64,000 bases of DNA from a virus (IMGVR_UViG_3300046507_000113:4965-68964), one strand, 5' to 3'. Positions 15,802-31,427 are shown, counted from the first letter of the stretch. The notes: generated by a model not told the origin, from the letters alone. Program-made: numbers and translations.

Positions 15802-16203
15802 ATGTTTGTCGCAGTTTATGGTACGCTTAAGCAGGGTTATGGTAACAATCGTCTCCTTGCTAATTCTACATTCGTTGGTGAGGGTACAGTAAGGGGCTAT
15901 AAGCTCTATCATGCTGGTTTCCCTGTCGCTTGTCCCGATGAGAATAGCACTATCTCTGTTGAACTGTGGGATATCGGTGACAGTAAGTCTACCTTGCAGT
16001 CTCTTGACTGGCTCGAAGGGTACGATGCAAACGAAAAAGACCCCGATCATAACAATATGTACAACCGCACTCCTGTCAAGGTGTTTACTGACAGTGGAAG
16101 TGTAGAAGCAAATATGTATGTCGGGGCCTCTGGATTTTGGAAAGATTTCGTCGGTATGAAGGAGTGTTCCATTGTACACGGAAGCTATAAATGGTCTAGG
16201 TGA
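15802..16203 (+). CDS. Gamma-glutamylcyclotransferase (AIG2/YtfP-like)
   Basis: FVAVYGTLKQGYGNN, LDWLEGY, YNR motifs. Confidence 0.9.
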   Translation: MFVAVYGTLKQGYGNNRLLANSTFVGEGTVRGYKLYHAGFPVACPDENSTISVELWDIGDSKSTLQSLDWLEGYDANEKDPDHNNMYNRTPVKVFTDSGSVEANMYVGASGFWKDFVGMKECSIVHGSYKWSR

Positions 16204-16456
16204 TGTTAAGGTAGGGGATACTATCTTTGTTCAAGACAGAGTTGACCCCCTAAAGATAAAGAGTTGGCAGTATCGGTATCTAGTTACTGAGGTAACCCCT
16301 AGTGGTATCGGTGTCTTATATAACTCCCTAGACGATCCCATTACAGCAGCTGGAACTATCGACAAAACAACCTTTGCTGTCCTACGTTGGGGTAGGGTAG
16401 TCGATGAACGTCCATATGATCCCTCACAGGAGCCTGATGCAGATGACGATGTTTAA
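16172..16456 (+). CDS. Small beta-rich protein with C-terminal tag (copy 1)
   Basis: TTG start with AAGGAG SD; VKVGDTIFV; ends RPYDPSQEPDADDDV. Confidence 0.8.
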   Translation: MYTEAINGLGDVKVGDTIFVQDRVDPLKIKSWQYRYLVTEVTPSGIGVLYNSLDDPITAAGTIDKTTFAVLRWGRVVDERPYDPSQEPDADDDV

Positions 16457-16643
16457 CAGAAAATTATATCTGAAAAGCATAGAAGCTACCAATAATGCAG
16501 ATGCTGTAGCTCAGAGTTCCATTGAGGGTCGTGCTCATCAGTGGAATAACTATCGTAGACTTATCCGTAATGGATACAGGAGTATTCATAGAGAGGTTAT
16601 GGAAACTAAGTACAACCCGTTGAAGGATGGAAAGAATGAATAA
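16449..16643 (+). CDS. Hypothetical protein
   Basis: ATG lies inside the tag-coding end of the previous gene. Confidence 0.55.
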   Translation: MFNRKLYLKSIEATNNADAVAQSSIEGRAHQWNNYRRLIRNGYRSIHREVMETKYNPLKDGKNE

Positions 16644-16992
16644 CCTATCTCTTATGCTTTACTTCGCAGATGTCGCAGAGAAGATTGCCAGTGCATTTAC
16701 TTTGATGACGTTGATATTCTTGTTTGCATCAATTGTGGGAACTATTATAGTCGTATCCACAAGAATAGAGTACTACGGAAAGCCCGCTCCAATGTGGATG
16801 GTTATTGTTCCGATTTTATTCCTATTCCTCTCCACACCCGGAGCGGTCCTCATTCCCTCTAAGAATACGATCTATTTGATCGCAGGATCGGAGATTGGTG
16901 AACAGGTGGTGAAGTCTCCCGAGGCACAGCAGATGTTCTCGGACATTCGGGAAGTCATCCAGCAGCAAATCAAAGAACTCAAGAAGGAATGA
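16636..16992 (+). CDS. Membrane protein
   Basis: Two TM helices, then LIPSKNTIYLIAGSE. Confidence 0.7.
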   Translation: MNNLSLMLYFADVAEKIASAFTLMTLIFLFASIVGTIIVVSTRIEYYGKPAPMWMVIVPILFLFLSTPGAVLIPSKNTIYLIAGSEIGEQVVKSPEAQQMFSDIREVIQQQIKELKKE

Positions 16993-16997
16993 TCGGT

Positions 16998-17153
16998 ATG
17001 GTTAAATACCGTATTCGTCCCTATTGGGGTATGTACGACTACAAGTTGGAACGAAAGTGTTTGTTCTTCTGGCGTACAGTCGGTAAGAGCGATTGCTACT
17101 ATGAACTCAAAGACCGTGTAGAAACCGTTGGTGGTTTCTTGGTGGAGGAATAA
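16998..17153 (+). CDS. Small protein, xKYRI family copy 1
   Basis: MVKYRIRPYWGMYDYKLERKCLFFWRTV...; 51 aa, below the ORF track cutoff. Confidence 0.6.
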   Translation: MVKYRIRPYWGMYDYKLERKCLFFWRTVGKSDCYYELKDRVETVGGFLVEE

Positions 17154-17155
17154 CG

Positions 17156-17434
17156 ATGGATAAGTACCGTATTGTACCCCATAAGATGGGACGCTGGGAA
17201 GTTCAGAAAGAATACAAGAGGTATGAAGGCCGATGGATGAGGTACGGTTTTCTGTATCTCAAGAAAAGATGGGTCGAGGATACTGAACCTTCTTACATTG
17301 GCTGGTCCACCATGTATGTAAATGATACTTGGGCTGTCTTTGACACCAAGAACGAAGCCTATGAGTGTATCAACAAGCTGAGGAGAGATGTGGCTCATAT
17401 GGAGACACCTCCAGAGGAGTATCCCCGTGGGTAA
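17156..17434 (+). CDS. Small protein, xKYRI family copy 2
   Basis: MDKYRIVPH...; GGAGG SD. Confidence 0.7.
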   Translation: MDKYRIVPHKMGRWEVQKEYKRYEGRWMRYGFLYLKKRWVEDTEPSYIGWSTMYVNDTWAVFDTKNEAYECINKLRRDVAHMETPPEEYPRG

Positions 17435-17705
17435 GTATCGTATTGTTACTACTTTCAGAAGGTCTCTTCATGGATCTCGTACTCAGTTCTATCTCTACTA
17501 TATTGTAGAGTTCAAGAAGTCTTGGTTCTCCGGGTGGACGGTTCTGAATACTACGATGGCATCTGATGGCTTCGAGTCCTCCAAGAAGTTCATTGAGGAA
17601 CACAAGAAGCTCAACCAACGTACCGTCGTCTACGAGGACCCTCAACCGAAAACAGTCCTCTCGAATGATGACTTATTGTACGGATCACAGAGGGAACAAC
17701 GATGA
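17427..17705 (+). CDS. Small protein, xKYRI family copy 3
   Basis: GTG start after GAGGAG: MGKYRIVTT...KKSWFSGW. Confidence 0.65.
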   Translation: MGKYRIVTTFRRSLHGSRTQFYLYYIVEFKKSWFSGWTVLNTTMASDGFESSKKFIEEHKKLNQRTVVYEDPQPKTVLSNDDLLYGSQREQR

Positions 17706-17911
17706 TCTTAATTGCGTGGTTGTTAATCGGGTACTTCTCCGGGCTTTTCCTCTTGGCCTTGTATCTCTATGACACAGGAAATAGGGCAGAGCTAGGTGAG
17801 GTAATCATTGGCTGTTCTTTTGGTGCTCTAGGTGGACCTGTTACACTGGTATTTGCTGTTGTAATAGTCCTTCCACAAGTCATCGTGAGAAACTGGAACA
17901 GGAAATTATAA
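17702..17911 (+). CDS. Small membrane protein
   Basis: Two hydrophobic helices; coupled. Confidence 0.6.
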   Translation: MILIAWLLIGYFSGLFLLALYLYDTGNRAELGEVIIGCSFGALGGPVTLVFAVVIVLPQVIVRNWNRKL

Positions 17912-18147
17912 TGGGACAGTTCGAAAAGAAAATCTTCACCAATCTCTATTGGAACACAAACAAGAAAGACTTGGTGATCATTGGTCAATATGGGACTGAG
18001 GCAAGGGCTATAGAGAAGATTAAGGATCCTGTCGCAGAGCCTACATTCATCTATCAGGACACCATTGGGGCCACCGTACTCTTTGAATACAACAAAGAGA
18101 TTGTGACAACACAGAAAAAGGAAGAGGAAAATGTTCCGGAAAGTTAA
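17911..18147 (+). CDS. Hypothetical protein
   Basis: TAATG-coupled. Confidence 0.6.
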   Translation: MGQFEKKIFTNLYWNTNKKDLVIIGQYGTEARAIEKIKDPVAEPTFIYQDTIGATVLFEYNKEIVTTQKKEEENVPES

Positions 18148-18421
18148 AGACTTCTTTACAGATTGCTTCAATAGTGTCAGTCCACAAGATGTACAACTCG
18201 GTGTAGTAGTTTGTATTCTAGGAGCTATGTTACTCTTCGCAGTGTTCCTATTGGGCGGTATCATCTATCAGAGCCCCATGGTGGCACTAGCTATCTTTGG
18301 TATAGTGCTTGCTGTCGTCGTCTTCGTGGCTTTGGTGTGGTTCTTTATGGGACTATACGTCAAGCTGACCCGTCCTCCTGTACAGCATTACGAAGATGTT
18401 TGGAACCTTCCTCCGGATTAA
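18131..18421 (+). CDS. Membrane protein
   Basis: Two TM helices; GAGG SD. Confidence 0.65.
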   Translation: MFRKVKDFFTDCFNSVSPQDVQLGVVVCILGAMLLFAVFLLGGIIYQSPMVALAIFGIVLAVVVFVALVWFFMGLYVKLTRPPVQHYEDVWNLPPD

Positions 18422-18571
18422 TTTATTGATCTACTGGACTGACCTTTCGAATACCTTAAGGACTTCTCTAATGGTTTCTCTATTGGGAAGTCCTTTAAAA
18501 GGTTTTATTTTAACTTCTTATTACTTAACTTCTGAACTTAGTATCTAATTGAGTTTCGATGTATGAGTTTA

Positions 18572-18600
18572 ATTATATCATATATTTTTCCATTTGTAAA
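18572..18600 (-). promoter_or_regulatory. Leftward (antisense) sigma70-type promoter
   Basis: On -: TTTACA-17 nt-TATAAT with extended TG, in an AT-rich intergenic gap. Confidence 0.6.
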
Positions 18601-18658
18601 CCCCTAGGGGGTATTTTTCTTTGTCACATCTCAAGATGGAAGTTCGAAAGGAGGGATC

Positions 18659-18967
18659 ATGACAGAAAGAACACTAGAAATTATTAAATCTTGGGAAGAT
18701 GTTCTACCGGGAGACCTTCTTATTTGGTCTGATAGTGATCTTGTGGTGGAATTCTCCAGTGTCGCTCAATACGGTTTCAGCGGTACAGTTCGAGGTGCTA
18801 ATGACCTTGACTATGAAGACGGTATGAATAGTGATACTTGGACCATGGAGACTTATAATCCTAATAAGCTGTACGATACCAATCTTGGATGGCGTAAGAT
18901 CGTTACTGGTCCTCCTGAACGTCCATATGATCCAAGCCAGGAACCTGACGATGAGGATGATGTATGA
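18659..18967 (+). CDS. Small protein with C-terminal tag (copy 2)
   Basis: AAGGAGG SD; VLPGDLLIW; ends RPYDPSQEPDDEDDV. Confidence 0.85.
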   Translation: MTERTLEIIKSWEDVLPGDLLIWSDSDLVVEFSSVAQYGFSGTVRGANDLDYEDGMNSDTWTMETYNPNKLYDTNLGWRKIVTGPPERPYDPSQEPDDEDDV

Positions 18968-19353
18968 ATACCGAATATAGTATTCGTAGTGTAACTGTGA
19001 CTCTCTTTAACCATGAGCATGGTTCTTGTGTAGGAACTCATCTCCCAGGTACTGGTGAGGTAGTCCACTTGGCCAACTCCTATATCACTCATCAACAAAG
19101 AGGTAAGGGATTGGGGTCTCAGTACCATCAGGAACGTCTCAACCATTTGATCGATGACGAGAAGGTGACACTTGTTACTTGTATCATCCGAATGGATAAC
19201 GAGCCACAGGTGAAGATCCTCAAGAAAAATGGATGGAAGTTCCTCCATGAATTCAACAGTATGTACAATGAACCTCTTTGTCTCTGTGTTAGAGATGTGA
19301 GGGTAGTGGAGTACGATCCTAACCAACAGCCTGATGGGGATGAAGACGTATGA
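18964..19353 (+). CDS. GNAT acetyltransferase with C-terminal tag (copy 3)
   Basis: Acetyl-CoA motif QQRGKGLG and DNEPQVKILKKNGW; ends YDPNQQPDGDEDV. Confidence 0.8.
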   Translation: MNTEYSIRSVTVTLFNHEHGSCVGTHLPGTGEVVHLANSYITHQQRGKGLGSQYHQERLNHLIDDEKVTLVTCIIRMDNEPQVKILKKNGWKFLHEFNSMYNEPLCLCVRDVRVVEYDPNQQPDGDEDV

Positions 19354-19577
19354 AAGTCTGGGTGCTTGAAGAAGTTAACGAAGGCTACTGGACTAATTAC
19401 AAGATCTTCCGAGAAGATCATCCCCCATCATCACTGCGTATCATGGAAGTGATCCAACAATGGGGTTATTCTCTAAAATATGCTGGTGGAGTGGCCGATC
19501 ACCTAGAACAACAAAATAAGTGGGATGATACATTTGAGGGTGTTCATATCTCACTTAAGTTGGTGGAGATAGAATGA
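19350..19577 (+). CDS. Hypothetical protein
   Basis: ATGA-coupled. Confidence 0.6.
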   Translation: MKVWVLEEVNEGYWTNYKIFREDHPPSSLRIMEVIQQWGYSLKYAGGVADHLEQQNKWDDTFEGVHISLKLVEIE

Positions 19578-19721
19578 GCATCCATTATTATGACTATGTG
19601 GACCCTGATAGGGTATTGCAGAACACAGCAGAGTTTCTTGCCAGACCTCCACAAAAGAGATCGTTGAAAGTTACCTCCAACAATGGGGGTTTTCCATTTA
19701 AAGTAGTAAGAGAGAAATAAT

Positions 19722-20447
19722 ATGTCAGTTATTACTGCCAATGTCGTGCCCACTACCTGTACTGCTGTCCTCCTTACTGGATGGGCCGAGGTTGAATTTG
19801 AGTTTGGTAAGGGTACAGGAAATAACCGTAAGACTAACGTCAAGAAGGAACTCAAGTTCGTCAAGGATCTCATCGAAGGTAGTTTCTATCGGTCTCACAA
19901 GATGATCCATGCCTTCATTACCAATGAGGAGATCGAGAACTATCGCACTGATAAGCTTCTCACTAAGCTTGGTTTCGAGTTGGTCTTCGAGGGTCCTTGG
20001 ACAGGTAAAACCTTCCCACAAGGTAATGCATCTGACAGGCTCTACTCTAATAGGGATGAACAGAGGCACGAAGAGACAGGTAGCCTCTTCCTTTGGGCAT
20101 GTACCCCTGAGAAGTATCAGGAATCTCTTGAAAACTTCAAGAAGGAACTCGAAGCAGAACTTCTTCAGATTGATCCTCCCAAGAAACCTGATCCTGCTCG
20201 TCTCGCCATGCCTGAGTTGAAGAAGACCGGACTCATTAAGAGCGGCATCATTGCAGAGAATTCCTATGTTGACAACGGTATCCATGCCGTCCTGAAGGTT
20301 ACTCCTGAAGTAGCCTACCGACATATTAAACTCACGTATGGTATTGATATCAAGAAGTGGAAGAATTACGGAGATGGTTGGACTAAGATTACTATCAGAC
20401 AGCTCAAAGAAGCCCACACTGCTTGGAAAGAAGAACCGGTCGTATGA
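19722..20447 (+). CDS. Hypothetical protein
   Basis: 241 aa with phage-like codon usage. Confidence 0.75.
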   Translation: MSVITANVVPTTCTAVLLTGWAEVEFEFGKGTGNNRKTNVKKELKFVKDLIEGSFYRSHKMIHAFITNEEIENYRTDKLLTKLGFELVFEGPWTGKTFPQGNASDRLYSNRDEQRHEETGSLFLWACTPEKYQESLENFKKELEAELLQIDPPKKPDPARLAMPELKKTGLIKSGIIAENSYVDNGIHAVLKVTPEVAYRHIKLTYGIDIKKWKNYGDGWTKITIRQLKEAHTAWKEEPVV

Positions 20448-21285
20448 GGTTGTACCTCTAACTCTAAATGATCCTCAACAGAAGTGGCTCTTCCCCAGGA
20501 ATGTGACTGGTAGGTTCTGCTATAAGGATAATGGTAGATGGAATAATTGGGAGTCCTCTACTTGCCATTCTCCGGTCCGTCAGCTGCTTTCTGGTCTGAC
20601 TGGCTTGGTGAGTACCCTGTGCAAGGTAAACCCTCTCACAAACAAATGGTGGGACTTTCTGGCCATATCTAATCCGGTATATAGGGAACTCTTTGAAGTG
20701 CCCGGTTGGAAGGTGATGGCTGATGCTTCTGGTCAGTATCATATGTTCTCCATGCCAGCAGAAGTGTTCAAGCTTCCTGTCCCTAGGATGCTGCTCTATG
20801 CCTTCTTGATTGATAGTAGAGTACCATTTGATCCTGCTGGTGGTGGTACTGAGAGGGTTAAGACTTGGGATCTTCTTGTTAGTCTTGGTGTTGAACCAAC
20901 CCTTGCCCACCTGATGTCAGTACACTTCAATGTCATGGAAGATAAACTCTACTTGACAGGTATGCAGTGGAACGGTGCCCATCAGGTCCTCAATGACAAT
21001 TGGCATTACGGTACGATGCGGACTGATTTCTCCATGTATCTTCGAGGTGAGTACCGGACTGATGGGGAACCTGACGAGAAACTTCTAACTTCTCAGCTTT
21101 GGTTCTCTAAGAGTGGTAAATCCGATAAACACGTTATACTTGGAAGTAATGATCTTAAGGACCTCACCAAAGAGAAGTCTGTGGGATCGTGGTCAAAAAG
21201 TTACTACATAGATCTTGACAGTGTCCCGGAGGTTGTTGAGATCTACAAGAAGAGAATTGAAGAAAGAAGGAAGTTTATACAATGA
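20338..21285 (+). CDS. Hypothetical protein (start uncertain)
   Basis: Long ORF coupled to the amidotransferase; possibly a distant paralog of 21918..22916. Confidence 0.7.
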   Translation: MVLISRSGRITEMVGLRLLSDSSKKPTLLGKKNRSYEVVPLTLNDPQQKWLFPRNVTGRFCYKDNGRWNNWESSTCHSPVRQLLSGLTGLVSTLCKVNPLTNKWWDFLAISNPVYRELFEVPGWKVMADASGQYHMFSMPAEVFKLPVPRMLLYAFLIDSRVPFDPAGGGTERVKTWDLLVSLGVEPTLAHLMSVHFNVMEDKLYLTGMQWNGAHQVLNDNWHYGTMRTDFSMYLRGEYRTDGEPDEKLLTSQLWFSKSGKSDKHVILGSNDLKDLTKEKSVGSWSKSYYIDLDSVPEVVEIYKKRIEERRKFIQ

Positions 21286-21908
21286 CTAAAGGGTCGGTCT
21301 ACATTGTAGGCAGTGATTTGAGTGTCAGTAATATGTTTCTGAATGAGGGCTTTAAGGTTACTAGCCTGATCGGGACAGCAGATGTTGTTTGCTTCTTGGG
21401 TGGTTTCGATATCAACCCTGAGCTTTACAACCAAGAGCTAGGCCCCAAGATGAGGTGGACTAGTGTTAGTCTGAGTGATGACACTCGTGATCTTGGATCA
21501 TACAGGAAGCTACGTAACGACCAGCTTAAGGTTGGTATTTGCCGTGGTGGTCAGTTCCTGAATGTCATGAGTGGTGGCAGTATGTATCAGCATGTCAATG
21601 GTCATACTAATCAACACAAGATTTATGATACCCTAATCAATCCTGGAGAAGAGGTTGTCGTTACTTCCTCTCATCATCAACAGATGATACCAGGTGCTGG
21701 AGCCGAGGTCCTCGGTTATTCAGAGGGTATTTCAGATGAGTTCTGGGGAGATAAAGGTAAAGTAGTTCCCCCGAAGTTTGAGTCCGAAGTTCTGTTCTAT
21801 GACAGTACCAAGTCTCTTTGTTTTCAACCGCATCCTGAATGGAATCTTCGAGGTACTCACGATTCTTGTTCTGGGTATTTCTTCGACATCATTGATCTAA
21901 TCCGCTGA
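21282..21908 (+). CDS. Class I glutamine amidotransferase / peptidase C26 (gamma-glutamyl hydrolase-like)
   Basis: GGFDINPELY, GICRGGQFLNV, SSHHQ, FQPHPE. Confidence 0.9.
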   Translation: MTKGSVYIVGSDLSVSNMFLNEGFKVTSLIGTADVVCFLGGFDINPELYNQELGPKMRWTSVSLSDDTRDLGSYRKLRNDQLKVGICRGGQFLNVMSGGSMYQHVNGHTNQHKIYDTLINPGEEVVVTSSHHQQMIPGAGAEVLGYSEGISDEFWGDKGKVVPPKFESEVLFYDSTKSLCFQPHPEWNLRGTHDSCSGYFFDIIDLIR

Positions 21909-21917
21909 GGCACTAAA

Positions 21918-22916: not shown

Positions 22917-23146
22917 AAGTCAAAGTGTGGACTCTTATTGTAGACAATGGTGACGGATCTTCTTCTGCACATCAGTTCAAGAATGCACAAGAGATCAAGG
23001 ATCATCTGGAAGAAGATGCTGATGAAGATTTCAGTGTCGGTCTGGAAGAAATCACTGATGGGGCTACTATCTTCGATCAGTACGACTATCCTTGTGAAGT
23101 TTCGGTAGGTATCTTTGATACTGATGGTTATGAGGTAGTTGAATAA
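22913..23146 (+). CDS. Small acidic hypothetical protein
   Basis: DNGDGSSS motif; coupled on both sides. Confidence 0.7.
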   Translation: MKVKVWTLIVDNGDGSSSAHQFKNAQEIKDHLEEDADEDFSVGLEEITDGATIFDQYDYPCEVSVGIFDTDGYEVVE

Positions 23147-23985: not shown

Positions 23986-24238
23986 TCTTGTTGACTTAAA
24001 GGACGACTCAGAGATCACAATTAGTTATGGCAGTAATAGTGCTGTTAGAAGGACATATGAGAAGTGTGGTCTACTCCCTCCGTATAGAATCACAAGAATT
24101 GAACCATCTAACACTATACCCGGTGTGATGGTAATCTTCATAGAGGGTTGTGATAATGGTCGGCATGACTTAAGATTTAAGTTTGCAGAGAGATATTACG
24201 ATCCTTCACAAGAACCTGATGACGTGGATGACGTTTAA
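23960..24238 (+). CDS. Small protein with C-terminal tag (copy 4)
   Basis: MASQFSIGDLVDL; ends RYYDPSQEPDDVDDV. Confidence 0.8.
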   Translation: MASQFSIGDLVDLKDDSEITISYGSNSAVRRTYEKCGLLPPYRITRIEPSNTIPGVMVIFIEGCDNGRHDLRFKFAERYYDPSQEPDDVDDV

Positions 24239-24253
24239 CAAAAGGAAATAGCC

Positions 24254-25345
24254 ATGTGTGGCTTGTATGGAATAATGGGTCCGGGAATTACTCTCAAGGA
24301 CTTGAAACTCTTCCGCGACCTAGGACTTACTTCCCAACTTCGTGGTACTGATGGTGCTGGTGTATATCAGATCAGGTCATCAACTTCTGGGAAGAAGAAC
24401 TTCTGGAATCTCGAACAACTCTATCGCAATCAGTATGGGTTCACCTCCCTACACAACATGATTGACGACAACAAGAACCATAAAGACTATCGAGAGCTTC
24501 TGCAGAACCAGTCCGTAGACTTGATCATCGGTCACAATCGTGCAGCTACCATTGGTGACGTACGACAGTCGAATTGCCATCCGTTTGTCAAGGACAATAT
24601 CGTCGGTGCTCACAATGGTACACTGTATGAAAAGCAGTACTACCATATCACAAAGACAGACAGTGAACTGATGTTCGAGGATATCGACAAGAATGGTCTT
24701 GTTGAAGTTCTTCGTGACTTCCGTGATCCTAAGTCTGCTTATGCAATCACGATGTATGATCGTAATGATCGTCACATGTACTTTGTTCGCAATGATCTTC
24801 GTACACTGGCATTTGCGTTCAATGAAGATCGTGGTGTAATGTATTGGGCTTCCGAGTTGGGTATGCTCAAGTATATCGTTGGTGAACGTGGTGGTGAGAA
24901 GATCAAGACTTTCTCCTTGAAGCCGGGTCTAGTGGTTCGTCTGTCTCCTAGCGACATTACCCTGAATAACATCAGGAATAACGCTGACAAGATCATCACT
25001 GTTCATGAATGGATCGCTCCGCCCAAAGAGACTATCGTGGTCAAGGTCCCTCCCGAAGAGGATAAGACACTTGCTCTTCCTGCTCCGGTTAAGACTGAGA
25101 AGGTCGATAACTTTGATGTAGCGGGGTCTGCGAAGGGTAACGTAGTTCCATTTCCCAAAACGCCTGCTCTTCGGGCTTTTCATGCTAAGTGTGCTTGCGG
25201 GAAGAAAGACTTGAACCTTCTGACTATCAGCTATGCTCGCCGCAAGAAGACAACTGATATCCGATATAATGAGCATTTGGATTGCTATTATTGTGCAGAG
25301 TGCGATCCATTGCTTCTGGAATCCAAAGATGAGGTAAGACAGTAA
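24254..25345 (+). CDS. Class II (Ntn) glutamine amidotransferase with C-terminal Cys cluster
   Basis: MCGLYG, RGTDGAG, GHNRAAT, HPF, HNGTL, TDSE. Confidence 0.9.
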   Translation: MCGLYGIMGPGITLKDLKLFRDLGLTSQLRGTDGAGVYQIRSSTSGKKNFWNLEQLYRNQYGFTSLHNMIDDNKNHKDYRELLQNQSVDLIIGHNRAATIGDVRQSNCHPFVKDNIVGAHNGTLYEKQYYHITKTDSELMFEDIDKNGLVEVLRDFRDPKSAYAITMYDRNDRHMYFVRNDLRTLAFAFNEDRGVMYWASELGMLKYIVGERGGEKIKTFSLKPGLVVRLSPSDITLNNIRNNADKIITVHEWIAPPKETIVVKVPPEEDKTLALPAPVKTEKVDNFDVAGSAKGNVVPFPKTPALRAFHAKCACGKKDLNLLTISYARRKKTTDIRYNEHLDCYYCAECDPLLLESKDEVRQ

Positions 25346-26061
25346 TGATTACGGTGAAGATTGGTTGTGATCCGGAAGGTTTCCTCTTCGATAAAAAGAA
25401 GGGAGCTTTCGTTTCCGCCCATGATGTTCTTCCGGGAACAAAGCATAAGCCCTTCAAATTGGAGAGGGGTGCAGTACAGGTTGATGGTGTTGCAGTGGAA
25501 TTCAATATTGATCCTGCTGTGACAGAAGAAGAATTTGACAATAACATCTCTGTTGTTCTCCAGCAGATTGATGAGATGGTCTTTGCTGCAAACAAGGACT
25601 TGGAAGTTCGATGGGAACCGGTTGCCACATTCTCGGAAGAGGTCTGGAAGCTTGTCCCTGAACAGAGCAAAGTCCTCGGTTGCGATCCTGACTATAATGT
25701 CAAGGGTGAAGTGAACATCAATCCGACAGAGAAACTGGAAGCAGCAAGTATTCGTACGGCTGCAGGTCATATTCATATTGGGTTTGTTGATAAGCCCAAG
25801 GATAACATCTCTCATGATCATTTCCAAGATTGTCTTTACATTGCAAAGGGATTCTTTGAGAGCAGTTTGCCATCGTTCGTACCAAGGACGAAAGCAGAAG
25901 AAGAGAGAATGAACTATTATGGCCATAACGGATCTTTTAGACCGAAGCCGTATGGGGTGGAGCTACGTGCACCATCGAATTGGTATGTACCGTCTTCGCA
26001 GAATCGCAGGACGATATATACAGAAACTCGGAATAAATTTAGAGAACTCACAGGACTTTAA
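25345..26061 (+). CDS. phiEco32-like COOH-NH2 ligase type 2 (copy 2)
   Basis: IGCDPEGF, QVDGVAVEFNIDP, GCDPDY, RTAAGHIHIG, GSFRPKPYGVELR. Confidence 0.9.
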   Translation: MITVKIGCDPEGFLFDKKKGAFVSAHDVLPGTKHKPFKLERGAVQVDGVAVEFNIDPAVTEEEFDNNISVVLQQIDEMVFAANKDLEVRWEPVATFSEEVWKLVPEQSKVLGCDPDYNVKGEVNINPTEKLEAASIRTAAGHIHIGFVDKPKDNISHDHFQDCLYIAKGFFESSLPSFVPRTKAEEERMNYYGHNGSFRPKPYGVELRAPSNWYVPSSQNRRTIYTETRNKFRELTGL

Positions 26062-26065
26062 AGGT

Positions 26066-26692
26066 ATGAGAAATAAGTATCATGGTGATGATCTACAGGC
26101 TCGTCTGGGTGGTACGATCATTCGACATAAGGGTCATCCCTACATTGCACAAGTCAATAGCGGTTCCGTTATCGATTTGATGGATATCGTTACAGGACAA
26201 CTAATTTGCCGTGTGGACCACGATGATAGAGACCTCGACATTAGCTCACTTACTCTTGGTTATGTCAACGTTGAGGATCCTGGGCACAAGCTGGCTGTAT
26301 ACCTCAAGAGAGAAGCTCTCCGTCAGTTCCGACAGGGTGTTGACATTGGTCGGCTCACTCAGTTTGTTCTTCGACCGGGTGTCCCACAGGTAACTCCGAA
26401 GGTCCTGTATTGTCAGGGTTTCGTTGATTGTGTCACAGGGAAGTATCCCACAGTATCTGAAGCGCTCTCTAAGATTATTAACAAGAGCTTCTTCTCTGTT
26501 GCTGTATCTCGTAATGTGGCACTCAAGAAGGATGGTGACCTAATCAAGGTCTTCGTCAAGGATGATGAGGTAGGCTATATGCAGCCCAATATGCTGAAGA
26601 TTGTAAAGGTCCCCAAGACCGATACTTCTCGGTATGCCATGTTCTTCCTGAACGAGGTCGAAGGTTGGAAGGTTGTTGAAGGTATCAAGTAA
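26066..26692 (+). CDS. Hypothetical protein of the ligase cluster
   Basis: ATG after AAGGT; LGYVN...R...RQG motif. Confidence 0.75.
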   Translation: MRNKYHGDDLQARLGGTIIRHKGHPYIAQVNSGSVIDLMDIVTGQLICRVDHDDRDLDISSLTLGYVNVEDPGHKLAVYLKREALRQFRQGVDIGRLTQFVLRPGVPQVTPKVLYCQGFVDCVTGKYPTVSEALSKIINKSFFSVAVSRNVALKKDGDLIKVFVKDDEVGYMQPNMLKIVKVPKTDTSRYAMFFLNEVEGWKVVEGIK

Positions 26693-27726
26693 TGACAAGT
26701 CAGAATGTTACAAAGATTTTTGATATTCAAAAGAATGTAGGACGTACTCCTTATAAGACACGTCACTCAGGTCGTTTTGGTATCGAGATTGAGACTGAGA
26801 CGGACAACAAGTACAAGTATCCAGTGTTGAAGTTCTGGGAACCAAAAGAAGATCGGAGCCTTCGTGGCTTTGGTGTGGAGTATGTTCTCAAGGCACCATT
26901 GGATAGTGTTGACCTGACTGAACCTCTCAAAGAGTTCAAGTATGTGGATGAACAATATAAGTTCAAGCGGGGTTCGGTCTCCACTAGTGTTCACGTCCAC
27001 ATGAACATGCAAAACGAAACCTACAAGACCGTTGCCAATATCATGACGGTATGGGCACTGATCGAACCGATCCTTGTTCGTTACTCCGGTCCTGATCGTA
27101 TGTCCAATCTGTTTTGTTTTGGTCTGATGGACGTTGAGGGTCTGCTTGATAAGTGGATTGGCGTCTTGAACATGATCAATCGGAATACCTTTGGTAAGGT
27201 AGCGGTCAGTCAGGATCAGGTTAAGTATTCGGCTCTGAATATTGCTACACTAAGTAGCTTGGGTACGCTTGAAGCACGTACTTTCAGAGGTGAGCTTGAT
27301 ACCAATGTCATCCAGAAGTGGGTTGATATTCTCGGGAAGATTGTTTCCTTCTCTAGTGATCCTGACATGGATCCTTCTCTGATCATGAAGATGTACGATG
27401 AACAGGGGATTAATATCCTTGACATTATCTTCGGTGAACTTGCAGAAGAATTGAAGATCAAGGATTACAAGAAGCTCATTAGTTTCGATGAGATCTTCCA
27501 TGCATCCAAGATTGCTTGTGTCTCTAAGGATTGGTCACGTTTCGGTATCCTTAAAGTCAAGCCGATCTATAAGGAAATGATCAGACCTCAGTTGGAAGAA
27601 CTCGCTCAGGTTCTGTTCAAGTCTCCTTATGATCAACTGAAGTATGAGGAGCGTAATATTGTTATCGAGCGCTACCACCAGATTAACGTGAACATGAAGG
27701 TGGTGGATGCAACTGGAGATATTTAA
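26692..27726 (+). CDS. Putative amidoligase
   Basis: FGIEIETE, EDRSLR, EYV, SVHVHMN, KYSALN, GTLEARTFRG. Confidence 0.85.
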   Translation: MTSQNVTKIFDIQKNVGRTPYKTRHSGRFGIEIETETDNKYKYPVLKFWEPKEDRSLRGFGVEYVLKAPLDSVDLTEPLKEFKYVDEQYKFKRGSVSTSVHVHMNMQNETYKTVANIMTVWALIEPILVRYSGPDRMSNLFCFGLMDVEGLLDKWIGVLNMINRNTFGKVAVSQDQVKYSALNIATLSSLGTLEARTFRGELDTNVIQKWVDILGKIVSFSSDPDMDPSLIMKMYDEQGINILDIIFGELAEELKIKDYKKLISFDEIFHASKIACVSKDWSRFGILKVKPIYKEMIRPQLEELAQVLFKSPYDQLKYEERNIVIERYHQINVNMKVVDATGDI

Positions 27727-28010
27727 TGGATATTGGAGACGAAGTAGAATACCATAGAGAAGCACCACCCGGTGTCCTCAACCCGGCAATCTATACTAAC
27801 TTTAATGGCTCATCAGGTATCATTAAGGACATGACAAGGGTCATGGCTACAGTATTTTTTAATAATGGTACTCTGAAAGATCACCATTACCGTGAGGCAC
27901 AACTGACTGGTGGAAGTCTTATTACAGTCAAGAGAGAAAATCTAAGGCTCCTCTGGAAAGAACGGCCTTATAATCCTGAACAAGAACCAGATGATGAAGA
28001 CGATGTATAA
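27726..28010 (+). CDS. Small protein with C-terminal tag (copy 5)
   Basis: MDIGDEVEY; ends RPYNPEQEPDDEDDV. Confidence 0.85.
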   Translation: MDIGDEVEYHREAPPGVLNPAIYTNFNGSSGIIKDMTRVMATVFFNNGTLKDHHYREAQLTGGSLITVKRENLRLLWKERPYNPEQEPDDEDDV

Positions 28011-28025
28011 TCGTAGGAGATTGAA

Positions 28026-28805
28026 ATGATTAATGCGCTTTTCTCGTACAGCCAGCATTCGGATGGTGCTAAGGGCCTTAAGAATGCTCTTGGTGTTCCG
28101 AAGATCAAACACACAGGTAGTACTTTCGTTCCCGCCGCACACAAAAAACTGATCAATTGGGGTGCAACCCCTGATCGATTCCCTCAGAAACTACTTACAT
28201 GTCAGGTTATCAACCATCCGGACAAGGTTGCTCTTGCCGTTGACAAGATGACTACCTTCAAGATCTTCCGTGATAACGGTGTTTCTTGCCCTGAGTTCAC
28301 AACAGAACGAGCTACAGCAGTACAGTGGCTTGAACAGGGTCATGATGTCTTTGCTCGTACTCAGCTCCGTGCATCTAGTGGTCGTGGTATCGTTATCATG
28401 GATCATGAGCATCCGGATACTTGGGAAGTTGGTGCACCACTCTATGTGAAGTATGTCAAGAAGCAGGACGAATATCGTATCCATGTGGTACGTGGTCAGG
28501 TAATTGACGTACAGCGTAAGGGTCTTCGTGCTGAATTCCAGAATGATCCGAATGTCAACTGGAAGATCCGTAACCTTGCCAATGGTTTCGTGTTCTCTCG
28601 TGACTTGAATACGAACCGTCCGGTTCCACAGATCGTTAAGGACGTTGGTATTGCAGCAGTACAGGCTCTTGGGCTTGACTTTGGTGCAGCAGACGTAATC
28701 TACCAGCGTCAGAGTAACCGTGCTTATGCTCTGGAAGTAAACACCGCCCCAGGTCTGGAAGGTCAGACTGTAACATCTTACGCCACAGCTCTCAGCGCCC
28801 TCTAA
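28026..28805 (+). CDS. ATP-grasp peptide ligase (RimK/YheCD-like)
   Basis: INWG, SSGRGI, EYRIHV, IRNLANGF, GLDFGAADV, LEVNTAPGL. Confidence 0.9.
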   Translation: MINALFSYSQHSDGAKGLKNALGVPKIKHTGSTFVPAAHKKLINWGATPDRFPQKLLTCQVINHPDKVALAVDKMTTFKIFRDNGVSCPEFTTERATAVQWLEQGHDVFARTQLRASSGRGIVIMDHEHPDTWEVGAPLYVKYVKKQDEYRIHVVRGQVIDVQRKGLRAEFQNDPNVNWKIRNLANGFVFSRDLNTNRPVPQIVKDVGIAAVQALGLDFGAADVIYQRQSNRAYALEVNTAPGLEGQTVTSYATALSAL

Positions 28806-28823
28806 TATTACGAAAGATATACT

Positions 28824-29942
28824 ATGTGTGTGATCATGGTACTGCCGCCCAAGGCAATGATTAACAAAAGTCATTTCTACAATGCTTGTTATAATAACTG
28901 GCATGGGTATGGCATCATTATCAAGAAGCCGAAGAAGTTTGAAGTGGTAAAACAGTTCAAGGCAGAAGGCAACGACCCCGATGAGATTTGGGATATTGTC
29001 AATGACAACAAGGATCATGAACGTATTGTTCACGTCCGTTATTCGACAAGAGGGGCAACTGACGAGACGAACACTCAGCCCTTTGAAGTGTTCAACAATG
29101 GAACTCGTCGTGTGATGTTCATGCACAACGGAACTCTCAACGGATTTGGTGAATGGAACCAGTCCGTCTCTGGGGGTAAGAGTGACACCAATGCTTTCTG
29201 TGAGACAGTTCTGAGTAAGTCTCTCCGTAAGTGGTCGTCAGATGAGAATGGTCTCGGTGATTATACCGATCCGGACTTCATCAAGCTCGTTGTTGACAAG
29301 CAGTGGACGATGAACTCTCGTGGTATCTTTGTATCCAATGACCTTCCGAATATGATGATCGGTAACAGGGGATACACAGGTTGGCAGCTCTACAAACATC
29401 CTGATGCCTCTACTCATGGTGAGATCTGGGTATCGAATGACGAGTACTTCGATAAGCTGACACGAGGCCCAAAGTTCGACGAACAGGAAAAGATCAAGAA
29501 GGCAGCAGAGGAGGCTCGTCGTCAGGCGGAGAGGGACAATGCCCCTTTTCAGGGGGGATCGTCAAGAACCTCTTCAGAAACTTCCTCCGAGATCGCGGGG
29601 ATTACGATCTTCAAGAAGGAGACAGCTACGAACGAAGCAGTTCTCACAGCTATCAACGATATCATTGATACGTGGGATCTTAATGACCCGAAGGACGTCT
29701 CCAAACTCCGATTCATTGCCTACGAAGAATGGGTAGGTTTCTTGGAAGAACAGAAGAACAACAGTGATTTCGTGAGTGCTGCCATTATTCAACAGTTCGC
29801 AGACCATATCTGCAAGCTCACGATGAAGGTACGTTCTCTGGAACTCCGTCATAATAAGGCTTCACAGCGGGTTGAAGAACTCCGTAAGCAGCTTGATGCA
29901 ATTGAAGGTGATAAGAATGGCAGTGCAGCTGAAGCAGCGTAA
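28824..29942 (+). CDS. Second class II glutamine amidotransferase
   Basis: MCVI, HVRYSTRG, QPF, MHNG, SDT. Confidence 0.85.
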   Translation: MCVIMVLPPKAMINKSHFYNACYNNWHGYGIIIKKPKKFEVVKQFKAEGNDPDEIWDIVNDNKDHERIVHVRYSTRGATDETNTQPFEVFNNGTRRVMFMHNGTLNGFGEWNQSVSGGKSDTNAFCETVLSKSLRKWSSDENGLGDYTDPDFIKLVVDKQWTMNSRGIFVSNDLPNMMIGNRGYTGWQLYKHPDASTHGEIWVSNDEYFDKLTRGPKFDEQEKIKKAAEEARRQAERDNAPFQGGSSRTSSETSSEIAGITIFKKETATNEAVLTAINDIIDTWDLNDPKDVSKLRFIAYEEWVGFLEEQKNNSDFVSAAIIQQFADHICKLTMKVRSLELRHNKASQRVEELRKQLDAIEGDKNGSAAEAA

Positions 29943-30525
29943 GAACCTCTCGTATGATCCTTGGATGGTCCTTGAAAGGGCCTCCAAGAGTACACCAGAC
30001 TGGTCAGCACTGAATGCCAAACGACAGGAGCATTTTGTTCTTGTCACTGGTACTGCTAGGGCTCGTCGTCAGAGGAATGATATTCTTTCTGGTTGTAGGA
30101 ACTACGGACTGGCCAATACGACTAGTGATGTTTTCATCATGAAGCGAGGTCCTTTCCAGTATGAAACCAATCAAGCACCAGAACCAATGGTGTTCGAGTT
30201 TCCTGCCACACAGAAGCAGAGGCTCTTGAAGTTTCCAGAGGATTTCCCTGCGAAGGATCTAGGAAAGGTACAGGGAGAGATGTGGGGTGTACCCCTTCGT
30301 GTCCTCGCTGAACTGGATGCATTTATGGGTAATGGAGAAGGAGTAATCCGAGAGAAGAGGTATATTAGTCTCGTCAATTCAGAACATGAAATCAGAAATC
30401 ATCTAGCATGGATGTATCTCGTAAACTTCGATCATTTTGAAGAATACACATGCATGTATCAATTGTATAATACGAATAGAACAATTCCGAATACGGGTTC
30501 TATGATTTATTTTTATTCTGGCTAA
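29917..30525 (+). CDS. Divergent gamma-glutamylcyclotransferase-like protein
   Basis: FVLVTGT...VQGEMWGV...LAELDAF...AWMY follows the GGCT pattern. Confidence 0.55.
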   Translation: MAVQLKQRKNLSYDPWMVLERASKSTPDWSALNAKRQEHFVLVTGTARARRQRNDILSGCRNYGLANTTSDVFIMKRGPFQYETNQAPEPMVFEFPATQKQRLLKFPEDFPAKDLGKVQGEMWGVPLRVLAELDAFMGNGEGVIREKRYISLVNSEHEIRNHLAWMYLVNFDHFEEYTCMYQLYNTNRTIPNTGSMIYFYSG

Positions 30526-30528
30526 GGA

Positions 30529-30864
30529 TTGTCAATTATGGCAAATATGGCAAAAATGAAATTTCAACTAGGGGATTATGTAAGGTACACCAACAAGAGA
30601 GAAAAACTAGATTTTGTTGGTACGATTGTTTCTGCTGATCCGAACTATGGTGAATATCTCATTCTACCGGAAGATCATCTCAAAGGTGCAATGAAGATGT
30701 ACAGATCATCTAGTGAGGAAGGTACTTGGCTCAAAAATCACTTTTCACATGCTGGACGGTCTCTAGAACCTGTGGTTTGGGCATCTTCGAAATCTCGTAG
30801 CATGAGGTATGCTGAATTAATGTACGATCCTACTCAGGAGCCTGATGATGAAGACGACATTTAA
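30529..30864 (+). CDS. Small protein with C-terminal tag (copy 6)
   Basis: KFQLGDYVRY; ends MYDPTQEPDDEDDI. Confidence 0.8.
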   Translation: MSIMANMAKMKFQLGDYVRYTNKREKLDFVGTIVSADPNYGEYLILPEDHLKGAMKMYRSSSEEGTWLKNHFSHAGRSLEPVVWASSKSRSMRYAELMYDPTQEPDDEDDI

Positions 30865-31114
30865 TGAAGGTGATAGAGTTATCCTGACCCGTGACAGCAC
30901 CAATGGTCCCACAGGAGAGTATGGTCGTAAGGGTGACACTGGTACTGTCGTCCAAAATCTGTACGGTACTTCTAATGTACAAGTAAGAGTTCGCTTTGAC
31001 AAGATGTTTCATGGTGCCCACGAGTGGTATGCCTATGTCAAAGAACTCGAACATGAATATATAGAGAGACCTTATGACCCTAGTCAAGAACCAGACGATG
31101 AGGACGACGTGTAA
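30845..31114 (+). CDS. Small protein with C-terminal tag (copy 7)
   Basis: TFNEGDRVIL...KGDTGTVV...VRFD (SH3/KOW-like); ends RPYDPSQEPDDEDDV. Confidence 0.85.
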   Translation: MMKTTFNEGDRVILTRDSTNGPTGEYGRKGDTGTVVQNLYGTSNVQVRVRFDKMFHGAHEWYAYVKELEHEYIERPYDPSQEPDDEDDV

Positions 31115-31172: not shown

Positions 31173-31427
31173 ATGGTAGACGAACTACAGAAACTACAAA
31201 ACCTAATTCGTTCTGTGAATAGAGGGGGATATTTTAGGTGTTCCATTTGCAATTGTGTTTCGAATGAACGTATCGAGACAAACATAGGCGACTACAAGCC
31301 TAACATGCCATTTGCTCATGATCCCAAAGACAGTTTACATTTTATCTGTATTGATTGTGAAGAAGCAATTCAAGAACTAAGAGATGATTATGAGTATGAA
31401 GATGATGAAGACATGAAAGGAGATTAA
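31173..31427 (+). CDS. Small zinc-finger protein
   Basis: CSIC...CIDC; acidic tail. Confidence 0.75.
   Translation: MVDELQKLQNLIRSVNRGGYFRCSICNCVSNERIETNIGDYKPNMPFAHDPKDSLHFICIDCEEAIQELRDDYEYEDDEDMKGD

What the first reader, a model, noticed from the sequence alone, without database searches (positions are those of the whole stretch)
16172..31114. Seven divergent small proteins share one C-terminal tag, Y[DN]PxQ[EQ]PDx[DEV][DE]D[VI]-COOH
Seen: ORFs at 16172, 18659, 18964, 23960, 27726, 30529 and 30845 end in RPYDPSQEPDADDDV, RPYDPSQEPDDEDDV, EYDPNQQPDGDEDV, RYYDPSQEPDDVDDV, RPYNPEQEPDDEDDV, MYDPTQEPDDEDDI and RPYDPSQEPDDEDDV. The tag has fixed length and always ends at the stop. Codons differ between copies (Ser is TCA, AGC or AGT), so conservation is at the peptide level. 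Six bodies are divergent beta-rich domains with an early GD-x-hydrophobic motif (SH3/KOW-like); the seventh is a GNAT, so the tag is portable across folds. All copies lie within the span of the glutamyl/peptide ligase genes, and several directly follow an enzyme (GGCT, COOH-NH2 ligase, amidoligase, second GGCT). Established: COOH-NH2 ligases share the glutamine synthetase-like fold with the Pup ligase PafA, and RimK-type ATP-grasp enzymes modify acidic C-termini. Inference: the tag is either the substrate signal of a phage protein-conjugation system (Pup-like) or a docking tail that recruits several adaptors to one hub, as SSB tails do. I know of no description of this tag.
Basis: partly seen in the sequence, partly recalled or inferred. 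Interest (0 to 1): 0.92.

Follow-up and report, generated by a model that had tools for sequence, protein, structure and literature searches.

The report
Shared acidic tail on phage proteins
A group of soil-bacterium viruses ends 7 to 15 otherwise unrelated small proteins per genome with the same short acidic tail, which also turns up on a few proteins of the host bacteria, so it looks like an undescribed address label read by one still unknown partner.

Summary
All seven + strand ORFs end in Y[DN]PxQ[EQ]PDxx[DE]D[VI]-stop. There were 0 such matches in 100 shuffled windows.

The window comes from a 68,964-bp phiM6-like phage. Relatives carry the same device in their own versions: 13 copies in a 66.5-kb relative, 15 in Rhizobium phage RHph_I3_11 and 13-14 in Sinorhizobium phage phiM6. 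Five further 66-71-kb viral contigs hold 12-15 copies each.

- The motif core lies at a fixed distance from the stop in 45 of 46 cases, the last being off by one.
- Bodies are mostly unrelated, and synonymous sites differ freely.
- Tails match within a genome better than between genomes, even on matching bodies.

The link to the ligase cluster is not exclusive. Four of 4 other ligase-module phages lack any tail. Rhizobium prophages and islands without ligases carry it. So does histidyl-tRNA synthetase in 7 of 151 Rhizobium genomes.

Best reading: a portable docking handle read through the free C-terminus by one co-evolving partner, which is not identified. The ligase-substrate reading survives as a rival. 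The scan noted the same device before on other DNA (e1-3433680). I found no description in print.

The parts
16172..16456 (+). Tagged ORF1 (94 aa, TTG start); its start overlaps the end of the GGCT gene; ends ...RPYDPSQEPDADDDV (tail 16415-16456 with stop)
   Evidence: public gene call P0010 has the same 94 aa; orthologues P0013, P0033 and P0020 keep the tail
18659..18967 (+). Tagged ORF2 (102 aa), ends ...RPYDPSQEPDDEDDV; its stop overlaps the start of ORF3 (ATGA)
   Evidence: P0012
18964..19353 (+). Tagged ORF3 (129 aa), GNAT-like body, ends ...EYDPNQQPDGDEDV
   Evidence: the tagged orthologue in G001 is 49% identical
23960..24238 (+). Tagged ORF4 (92 aa); its start overlaps the end of the COOH-NH2 ligase gene; ends ...RYYDPSQEPDDVDDV
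   Evidence: P0017
27726..28010 (+). Tagged ORF5 (94 aa), between the Amidoligase_2 and ATP-grasp genes, ends ...RPYNPEQEPDDEDDV
   Evidence: P0005; the same position holds a tagged gene in RHph_I3_11
30529..30864 (+). Tagged ORF6 (111 aa from TTG 30529, or 108 aa from ATG 30538), after the second GGCT-like gene, ends ...MYDPTQEPDDEDDI; its last 20 nt overlap the start of ORF7
   Evidence: P0007; body similar to RHph_I3_11 21989 (E 1e-10) and G001 36333
30845..31114 (+). Tagged ORF7 (89 aa), SH3-like body, ends ...RPYDPSQEPDDEDDV
15802..30525 (+). Context: gamma-glutamyl / amide-ligase gene set. It holds GGCT 15802-16203, C26 peptidase 21282-21908, COOH-NH2 ligases 23146-23985 and 25345-26061, class-II GATases 24254-25345 and 28824-29942, Amidoligase_2 26692-27726, ATP-grasp 28026-28805 and GGCT-like 29872-30525. 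It also holds conserved unknowns 19722-20447 and 25919-26692.
   Evidence: the N-terminal half of the 241-aa unknown gives weak acetyltransferase fold matches

Best explanation
The tail is a portable C-terminal docking handle, a short linear motif of about 13-16 residues: an aromatic residue, x3, Gln, x, Pro or Gly, an acidic run, and a final aliphatic residue with the free carboxylate. It couples a fast-evolving library of small early proteins to one common partner, the 'reader'. Most of these proteins are SH3-like binder domains, and a few carry other folds.

Shown:
- peptide-level conservation;
- strict anchoring on the C-terminus;
- portability across folds;
- concerted, genome-specific versions of the tail.

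Inferred:
- that one partner reads all tails of a genome;
- that binding is non-covalent;

Candidates are genes kept by all four tag-bearing genomes but not found in phage TC6: the two GGCT genes, the 241-aa GNAT-like protein, the 257-aa protein and the second GATase. I give about 45% to a bacterial protein.
For: (1) Lineage-wide device. The window's phage has 7 copies, G001 13, RHph_I3_11 15 and phiM6 13, plus one phiM6 copy with an extra Gly. All lie on the coding strand, and the reversed-pattern controls gave 0. A viral-contig scan for the commoner 'G-type' tail found 28 loci on 15 contigs, 14 of which have ORF-terminal tails. Five contigs of 66-71 kb carry 12-15 copies each, and there are 89 distinct tagged proteins.

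(2) The free end is part of the signal. In 46 of 46 cases in four genomes the motif core lies at a fixed distance from the stop, one of them off by one, and it is never internal. All 42 profile hits among 1.84 billion proteins end at the last or second-last residue.

(3) Portability. With tails removed, only 11 of 903 pairs among 43 proteins are detectable by BLASTP at E<1e-3. The tail sits on SH3-like, GNAT-like and DUF7448 bodies, on helical 59-69-aa and alpha/beta 90-aa proteins, and on HisRS.

(4) Concerted evolution. Mean tail identity is 0.57-0.75 within a genome and 0.25-0.63 between genomes. In 5 of 7 cross-genome pairs with similar bodies, the tail matches own-genome paralogues (0.57-0.79) far better than the tail of the counterpart (0.29-0.38). 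Synonymous sites are scrambled, so this is not recent gene conversion.

(5) Independence from the ligases. The tail occurs in a complete 45-kb provirus with no Amidoligase_2 and no other similarity to this phage, in islands and prophage accessory regions, and on HisRS. Four of 4 other ligase-module phages lack any shared tail.

(6) Sporadic bacterial distribution, as in conflict systems. There were 0 hits in one genome each of 185,579 species for the P-type tail and 0 of 401 Rhizobiaceae genomes. In the genus Rhizobium 8 of 151 genomes have the G-type core. Some bacterial copies sit next to an OLD/Gabija-like ATPase, a Schlafen-like gene or a DpnII endonuclease.
Against: - No reader was found, and nothing shows binding.
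- In this phage group the tagged genes are interleaved with amide-bond enzymes, which act on carboxylates. GGCT is followed by an overlapping tagged gene in all four genomes. A covalent role therefore remains plausible.
- A tail on an essential housekeeping enzyme (HisRS), kept in 7 genomes, has no obvious place in a pure phage-hub model.
- P-type and G-type tails both occur in Rhizobium. This argues against one conserved bacterial reader, but it could also mean the motif is tolerant.
- G000 and G001 tails are near-identical in type, so the concerted signal rests mainly on comparisons with RHph_I3_11 and phiM6.
Confidence: 0.55

Rival explanations
1. Covalent substrate or carrier signal. The acidic tail with its free carboxylate is the acyl-donor site of the phage's amide-ligase set (ATP-grasp, COOH-NH2 ligases, Amidoligase_2). 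It would be extended, amidated or conjugated, with the GGCT, C26 and GATase enzymes trimming or supplying groups. This would work like RimK on S6, tubulin tyrosine ligase, LysX on LysW, or PafA on Pup (all four recalled).
For: - Tagged genes are interleaved with these enzymes in three of four genomes and directly abut them in phiM6.
- In RHph_I3_11 tagged genes flank the ATP-grasp gene on both sides, and in the window ORF5 precedes it.
- The fixed distance to the free C-terminus fits an enzyme active site.
- Some relatives of the ATP-grasp protein carry the RimK-type Pfam domain PF08443.
- Every tag-bearing lytic phage genome examined in full here (4 of 4) has the module.
Against: - The module is common without tails. 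Amidoligase_2 relatives occur in 206 phage records, and 4 of 4 tested outside the group lack a shared tail.
- Tails occur in a provirus, in islands and on hisS with no ligase nearby.
- The tail ends in Val, Ile or Leu, not in the Glu or Gly used by the known tagging enzymes (recalled).
- Having 7-15 different bodies per genome is odd for a carrier.
Confidence: 0.22
2. Degradation or timing signal. The tail is a C-terminal degron for a bacterial protease. It would keep early phage proteins, and labile regulators of prophages and islands, short-lived.
For: - It is a C-terminus-anchored signal shared by early genes.
- In bacteria it sits on small proteins at regulatory positions, for example just upstream of a prophage integrase and beside an ATPase of defence type.
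- C-terminal degrons are established in bacteria (recalled: ssrA, MuA).
Against: - An essential enzyme (HisRS) carries the full tail in 7 genomes.
- A bacterial protease should impose one version per host, yet two types occur in Rhizobium, and each phage keeps its own version across 7-15 genes.
- Known C-terminal degrons are non-polar or basic, not acidic (recalled).
Confidence: 0.1
3. No common function. The tail is a remnant of one expanded paralogue family, held in place partly by overlapping reading frames and ribosome-binding needs at gene junctions.
For: - Most bodies share an early GD.[VIL] motif (32 of 43), so many may be distant paralogues.
- At several junctions the codons for the tail's end (DEEDDI-stop) also encode, in another frame, the start (MKKMTF...) of the next gene.
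Against: - The tail is equally conserved where nothing overlaps it, as after ORF4, ORF5 and ORF7.
- It sits on non-homologous folds and on bacterial HisRS.
- Bodies have diverged beyond detection while the tails have not.
- Versions change in concert within a genome.
Confidence: 0.03

Closest known systems
SSB C-terminal tip (...DDDIPF) as a hub-docking peptide, and the acidic C-terminal tails of T7 gp2.5 and gp4 that dock on T7 DNA polymerase (recalled, not read here)
   Same: An acidic run ending in a hydrophobic residue with a free carboxylate, sitting after a linker and read by partner proteins.
   Different: Those tails sit on one or two replication proteins and end in an aromatic residue. 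Here 7-15 unrelated small early proteins carry the tail, it has a Y-x3-Q-x-[PG] front part, and it ends in Val, Ile or Leu. This phage's own SSB has a separate ...DDKIPW tail.
phiEco32-like amidoligase module (Iyer, Abhiman, Burroughs and Aravind 2009; not held, so recalled; Pfam PF14395 and PF12224). It is mentioned for phiM6 in PMC6256558 (whole text read), which says a role in peptidoglycan modification has been proposed.
   Same: The enzymes around the tagged genes belong to this module.
   Different: The phiM6 genome note names no protein substrate and no shared tail. For the 2009 paper I cannot say, because it was not held. The module occurs widely without any tail.
Pup / PafA pupylation
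   Same: A small protein end handled by a carboxylate-amine ligase of the glutamine-synthetase-like fold. This is only a resemblance in idea.
   Different: There is no GG[QE] end, no Pup-ligase Pfam domain, and many different bodies instead of one tag protein.
RimK on ribosomal protein S6, tubulin tyrosine ligase, LysX on LysW (ATP-grasp enzymes acting on acidic C-termini; recalled)
   Same: An ATP-grasp gene next to proteins with acidic C-termini.
   Different: Known substrates end in Glu. Here the end is aliphatic, the clients are many and diverse, and no modification is shown.
Cargo-loading peptides of encapsulins, and adaptor tails such as the SspB tail that docks on ClpX (recalled)
   Same: One short C-terminal peptide shared by unrelated proteins and read by one receptor, giving a variable head plus constant tail.
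   Different: The sequences are unrelated. The genes here are early, not structural, and no shell or unfoldase partner was identified.
   Same: The same device, in its G-type version, including the HisRS graft, which I re-tested here.
   Different: The window's phage carries a minority 'P-type' version (Q-[EQ]-P-D..., mostly ending in Val) and fewer copies (7).

Membership tests
Pup-like tagging (Pup / PafA / Dop) | The tag protein ends in GGQ or GGE | tested here: not met
   All seven tails end in D[VI]. The feature itself is recalled.
Pup-like tagging (Pup / PafA / Dop) | A ligase of the Pup-ligase family lies nearby | tested here: not met
   Pfam finds COOH-NH2_lig (PF14395), Amidoligase_2 (PF12224) and ATP-grasp hits, but no Pup-ligase family, among the 18 neighbouring proteins scanned.
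SSB C-terminal tip | Sits on an SSB and ends in D-D-D-I-P-F or a close variant | tested here: not met
   The tails sit on non-SSB proteins and lack the P-[FW] end. The phage SSB ends ...DDKIPW, and ...DDIPW in phiM6.
RimK / S6-type C-terminal glutamylation | A RimK-family ATP-grasp enzyme is present | tested here: inconclusive
   The window's ATP-grasp protein has only weak Pfam hits (R2K_2 at E 0.006). Some of its relatives carry PF08443.
RimK / S6-type C-terminal glutamylation | The substrate ends in Glu and is extended by Glu | tested here: not met
   The end is Val or Ile. Whether it is extended cannot be tested with these tools.
phiEco32-like amidoligase module (for the neighbouring genes) | COOH-NH2 ligase type 2, Amidoligase_2, class-II GATase and ATP-grasp together | tested here: met
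   PF14395 at 3.8e-8, PF12224 at 2.5e-7, GATase_6 at 5.7e-12 and GATase_4 at 3.9e-7, plus an ATP-grasp protein.
SH3-like beta-barrel (bodies of ORFs 1, 2, 4-7) | A match to an SH3-type family or fold | tested here: inconclusive
   Only ORF7 has a hit: SH3_12 at E 4.7e-5, below the cut-off, and Atlas model TM 0.69 to an SH3_12 cluster. The other five have no family hit. The early GD.[VIL] motif is present in 32 of 43 tagged proteins.
GNAT acetyltransferase (body of ORF3) | GNAT profile match and the R/Q-x-x-G-x-G/A motif | tested here: inconclusive
   Pfam gives E 1e-3 and 2.8e-3, below the cut-offs. PDB sequence hits to acetyltransferases are at E 0.24-0.43. RGKGLG is conserved in 3 of 3 orthologues. 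The model is poor at pLDDT 53.7, with weak acetyltransferase rows.
Portable C-terminal docking motif (the working class) | Same peptide on non-homologous bodies, fixed at the C-terminus and conserved at peptide level | tested here: met
Portable C-terminal docking motif (the working class) | A defined binding partner | not testable with these tools
   No partner was identified. This needs pull-downs or a full pairwise fold screen.

The most novel reading that the evidence does not exclude
An arms race fought over an address label. phiM6-like phages run a library of small binder proteins that all plug, through one C-terminal handle, into a phage-encoded reader, possibly part of the amide-ligase set.

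Rhizobia and their prophages answer with mimics of the handle:
- small decoy proteins in prophage accessory slots and defence islands;
- the full handle grafted onto histidyl-tRNA synthetase. Infection would then drag an essential translation enzyme into the phage's own machinery and abort the infection.

Escape from such mimics would drive the concerted, genome-specific drift of handle and reader.
Probability: 0.1. Interest if true: 0.92.

Novelty: new variant of a known kind. Interest (0 to 1): 0.8.

Why it matters
If one reader handles all these tails, then a tenth or more of the early genes of a widespread group of soil phages works as a plug-in library.

The tail is short, portable and C-terminal, so it is easy to test. 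phiM6 and Sinorhizobium meliloti 1021 are both in culture. The tail could also serve as a tool for recruiting proteins.

The bacterial copies, above all the one on HisRS, make a concrete question testable: do hosts copy phage address labels as a defence?

The same scan has noted other shared C-terminal tags in unrelated phages. This may therefore be one case of a general but undescribed design.

Tried and rejected
Steps that led nowhere:
- Megablast of the region against the phage collection found no match.
- A word-index search with ORF7 returned only ORF7 itself, so that route cannot find tails.
- tblastn of two island proteins against the plasmid collection found no match.
- A scan of the viral contigs for the phiM6-type tail gave 0 hits.
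- L014 is a 22-residue frame, not an ORF end. L114 did not pass my ORF-end filter, and my extraction did not settle it. I treat both as probable chance hits and dropped them.
- One false entry, RHph_I3_11 16838, entered the list of 43 and was removed from later counts.
- The Pfam, PHROG and PADLOC scans of the tagged proteins returned only weak, sub-threshold or no family hits; the sole exception is the DUF7448 body (E 1.6e-23).

Complex prediction of the ATP-grasp enzyme (60-row alignment) with the tail (24-row alignment) gave no verdict: score 0.07 against a mark of 0.32, with controls not run. This is neither evidence for nor against binding.

Ideas considered and rejected:
- The tail as an SH3 ligand (PxxP). 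The second proline is absent in the phiM6 and RHph versions.
- The tail as an autoinhibitor of a basic nucleic-acid-binding body. Net body charge runs from -11 to +6.
- The tail as a capsid-targeting signal. The genes lie in the early/middle + strand block and not among the - strand genes. This inference rests on gene order only.

Literature:
- Motif strings are in no held paper. The only hit was an unrelated mathematics paper (search listing).
- Two further searches found nothing on such a tail (search listings).
- PMC4431377 was read in passages, and PMC6256558 in its whole text.
- Iyer et al. 2009 is not held and is cited from recall and from what other papers say.

Full report
1. The observation

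The strict pattern Y[DN]P.Q[EQ]PD..[DE]D[VI]-stop occurs exactly seven times in the six frames of the window. It occurred 0 times in 100 base-shuffled copies. The first eight residues of the motif never occur inside a protein: 7 of 7 matches lie five residues before a stop.

Codon use differs between copies. Ser is TCA, AGC, TCA and AGT, and Asp, Glu and Pro codons are mixed. Over the last 14 codons, 21 pairs show 116 synonymous-codon and 79 residue-changing differences. Conservation is therefore at the peptide level.

Public gene calls agree with six of the seven coordinates. ORF6 is called from ATG 30538 rather than TTG 30529.

2. What the window is

The window is bases 4965-68964 of a 68,964-bp viral record with direct terminal repeats. 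Its primase-helicase is 63% identical to those of Sinorhizobium phage phiM6 and three Rhizobium phaseoli phages, RHph_I3_11, RHph_N3_19 and RHph_N3_13.

The genes around the tagged ORFs are the gamma-glutamyl / amide-ligase set known from phiEco32-like and PA11-like phages:
- GGCT, and a second GGCT-like gene;
- C26 peptidase;
- two COOH-NH2 ligases;
- two class-II amidotransferases;
- Amidoligase_2;
- an ATP-grasp enzyme.

The phiM6 genome note mentions this module. It says only that a role in peptidoglycan modification has been proposed (PMC6256558, whole text read).

3. The tail is a hallmark of the whole phage group, with genome-specific versions

An all-against-all comparison of ORF ends showed that phiM6 and RHph_I3_11 have their own versions of the tail.

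| Genome | Copies | Version |
|---|---|---|
| window's phage (G000) | 7 | YDPxQ[EQ]PD..DD[VI] |
| G001 (66.5-kb viral contig) | 13 | YDPxQ[QM][PRA]D[EQ][ED]DD[IV] |
| RHph_I3_11 | 15 | Y...Q.GD[TR][ED][ED]DI |
| phiM6 | 13, plus one with an extra final Gly | Y[KR].DQEP.[ED].E[ED].[LI] |

All copies lie on the coding strand, and the reversed-pattern controls gave 0.

A scan of the viral contigs for the G-type tail found 28 loci on 15 contigs, 14 of which have ORF-terminal tails. Five contigs of 66-71 kb carry 12-15 copies each, every one with its own flavour. In all there are 89 distinct tagged proteins.

In the four genomes the motif core sits at a fixed distance from the stop in 46 of 46 cases, one of them off by one. 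A profile of 24 tails, searched against 1.84 billion proteins, found 42 proteins at E<=0.001. All are 60-134 residues long, and all match at the last or second-last residue.

4. Bodies differ and tails evolve in concert

With tails removed, only 11 of the 903 pairs among 43 tagged proteins are detectable by BLASTP at E<1e-3.

- Most bodies look like small beta barrels. Of 43, 32 have the early GD.[VIL] motif. ORF7 has a sub-threshold SH3_12 hit and an SH3-like structural neighbour.
- ORF3 is GNAT-like, with a tagged orthologue in G001.
- One tagged protein in a related contig is a clear DUF7448 protein (E 1.6e-23).

Mean tail identity is 0.57-0.75 within a genome and 0.25-0.63 between genomes. 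In five of seven cross-genome pairs with similar bodies, each tail matches the paralogues of its own genome (0.57-0.79) much better than the tail of its counterpart (0.29-0.38). The two G000-G001 pairs show no such contrast, because those two genomes share nearly the same version.

Synonymous sites are scrambled, so this is selection and not recent gene conversion. The simplest reading is that all tails of a genome meet one partner whose preference drifts.

5. The link to the ligases is not exclusive

Amidoligase_2 relatives occur in 206 phage records. I tested four outside the phiM6 group, taking 21-25 kb around the module in each: Pseudomonas TC6, Klebsiella Asterion, Vibrio BA6 and Salmonella 7-11. 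None has a shared tail. The single high-scoring pair, in Asterion, is two HNH endonuclease copies. HMO-2011 has no shared tail, and its annotation names no ligase-module gene; I did not search it for the module.

Conversely, the window's own version of the tail occurs on unrelated small proteins in GC-rich DNA:
- a 59-aa protein just upstream of the integrase at the very end of a complete 45-kb provirus;
- a 69-aa helical protein lying between what my reading of the ORF translations takes to be a tRNA gene (no tRNA scan was run) and an OLD/Gabija-like ATPase, a Schlafen-like gene and prophage capsid genes, in a Rhizobium chromosome;
- a 90-aa protein beside another probable tRNA gene, judged the same way;
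- a relative of that protein beside a DpnII-type endonuclease.

The provirus has no Amidoligase_2. No protein of the 12-52-kb region of this phage has any similarity to these bacterial loci apart from the tail itself.

Note e1-3433680 reports the same device on another genome. It says that some rhizobia carry the peptide on histidyl-tRNA synthetase.

I searched 151 genomes of the genus Rhizobium for the core YDPxQx[GPAR]Dx[DE][DE]D. Eight have it, and the controls gave 0. Seven of the eight are hisS, ending ...AEDRKRAGSGFETPYDPAQAGDTDDD[VI]-stop. That is the complete tail at the correct length, in the flavour of one of the viral contigs. Five other Rhizobium genomes have hisS ending ...AEDRKRAG(DAQ) with no tail.

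The eighth hit is a 72-aa protein in a prophage accessory region related to the provirus above.

Stricter or differently aimed scans found nothing. The P-type pattern gave 0 hits in one genome each of 185,579 species. A pattern including the stop gave 0 of 401 Rhizobiaceae genomes and 0 of 5 Rhizobium genomes. The bacterial copies are thus real but sporadic.

7. How it most likely works

What is shown is a short peptide that is:
- selected at the protein level;
- anchored on the free C-terminus;
- portable across folds;
- changing in concert within a genome.

What I infer is that it is a docking handle connecting a library of variable small proteins to one reader. Three observations weaken the view that the ligases are the obligatory partner:
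- the ligases occur widely without tails;
- tails occur without ligases;
- GNAT-like and DUF7448 bodies carry the tail, which suits recruitment better than consumption.

Two observations keep a covalent role alive (about 0.2):
- the tagged genes are interleaved with carboxylate-activating enzymes;
- GGCT is followed by an overlapping tagged gene in all four genomes.

A degron reading (about 0.1) sits badly with an essential HisRS carrying the tail, and with genome-specific versions.

Two tail types occur in Rhizobium, and each phage keeps its own version. This favours a reader that travels with the phage. Genes kept by all four tag-bearing genomes but not found in TC6 are candidates:
- the two GGCT genes;
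- a 241-aa protein, whose N-terminal half gives weak acetyltransferase fold matches and which has an invariant DPPKKPDP stretch;
- a 257-aa protein;
- the second amidotransferase;
- an 84-aa cysteine-rich protein.

Bacterial copies that work without the phage would instead favour a bacterial reader. I put this at roughly 55:45.

8. Comparison with what is known

The closest known devices are:
- the acidic C-terminal docking tails of SSB and of T7 gp2.5 and gp4;
- adaptor tails such as the SspB tail that docks on ClpX;
- the cargo-loading peptides of encapsulins;
- on the covalent side, RimK/S6, LysX/LysW and Pup/PafA.

All of these are recalled, not read here. The tail shares the general form of the docking examples but none of their sequences or carriers. 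It fails the defining features of Pup and of the SSB tip.

I found no description in print. The motif strings are in no held paper, and two further searches found nothing. The 2009 paper on the enzyme module is not held, and supplements were closed.

The scan itself has seen this device once before on other DNA, and analogous shared tails in unrelated phages.

9. Verdict

I class the finding as a new variant of a known kind, namely shared C-terminal recognition peptides, with an unidentified reader. Interest is 0.8.

Noticed in passing
window 30845-30864; also G001 and RHph_I3_11 junctions (L018, L002): At several junctions the last codons of a tail (for example D-D-E-D-D-I-stop) are read in another frame as the start of the next small gene (M-M-K-T-T-F... 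or M-K-K-M-T-F-R-V-G-D...). The end of the tail and the head of the next SH3-like gene are therefore dual-coded.
   Followed up: partly
window 37330-37722 (+): The phage SSB-like protein has its own, different C-terminal tip...EDLDDKIPW, and ...GDDIPW in phiM6. This is distinct from the shared tail.
   Followed up: partly
window 19722-20447 (+): A 241-aa protein is conserved in all four tag-bearing genomes but was not found in phage TC6. The model has pLDDT 76.9. Its N-terminal half gives only weak fold matches, nearly all to GNAT acetyltransferases (best E 0.011). The stretch IDPPKKPDP is invariant in 9 of 9 relatives.
   Followed up: partly
loci L152-L158 (unnamed Rhizobium genomes): In 7 of 151 sampled Rhizobium genomes, chromosomal hisS carries a roughly 16-residue C-terminal extension that is a complete copy of the phage tail. 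hisS in 5 other Rhizobium genomes lacks it.
   Followed up: yes
L011 4916-8900 (Rhizobium chromosome fragment from a metagenome): An island beside what looks from the ORF translations like a tRNA gene (no tRNA scan was run). In order it holds a tail-bearing 69-aa gene, a 609-aa ATPase of OLD/Gabija/Septu type (PADLOC HEC-01A at 2.4e-22), a Schlafen AlbA_2 protein, and then a prophage protease-capsid gene.
   Followed up: partly
window 31173-31427 (+): An 84-aa cysteine-rich protein (CxxC ... CxxC) with an acidic end lies directly after the last tagged gene. It is conserved at 54-65% identity in all four tag-bearing genomes and was not found in TC6.
   Followed up: no
window 10670-12232 (+): A Ro60/TROVE protein with a vWA domain (E 2.1e-63) is encoded upstream of the tagged region. 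No relative was found in G001, RHph_I3_11 or phiM6. Other notes of the scan deal with the RNAs around it.
   Followed up: no
phiM6 record 53,666-58,271 (reverse strand); L001: In phiM6 the tagged genes form one tandem array of about 14 genes directly upstream of the ligase module, interrupted only by GGCT. In the window they are interleaved with the enzymes instead.
   Followed up: partly
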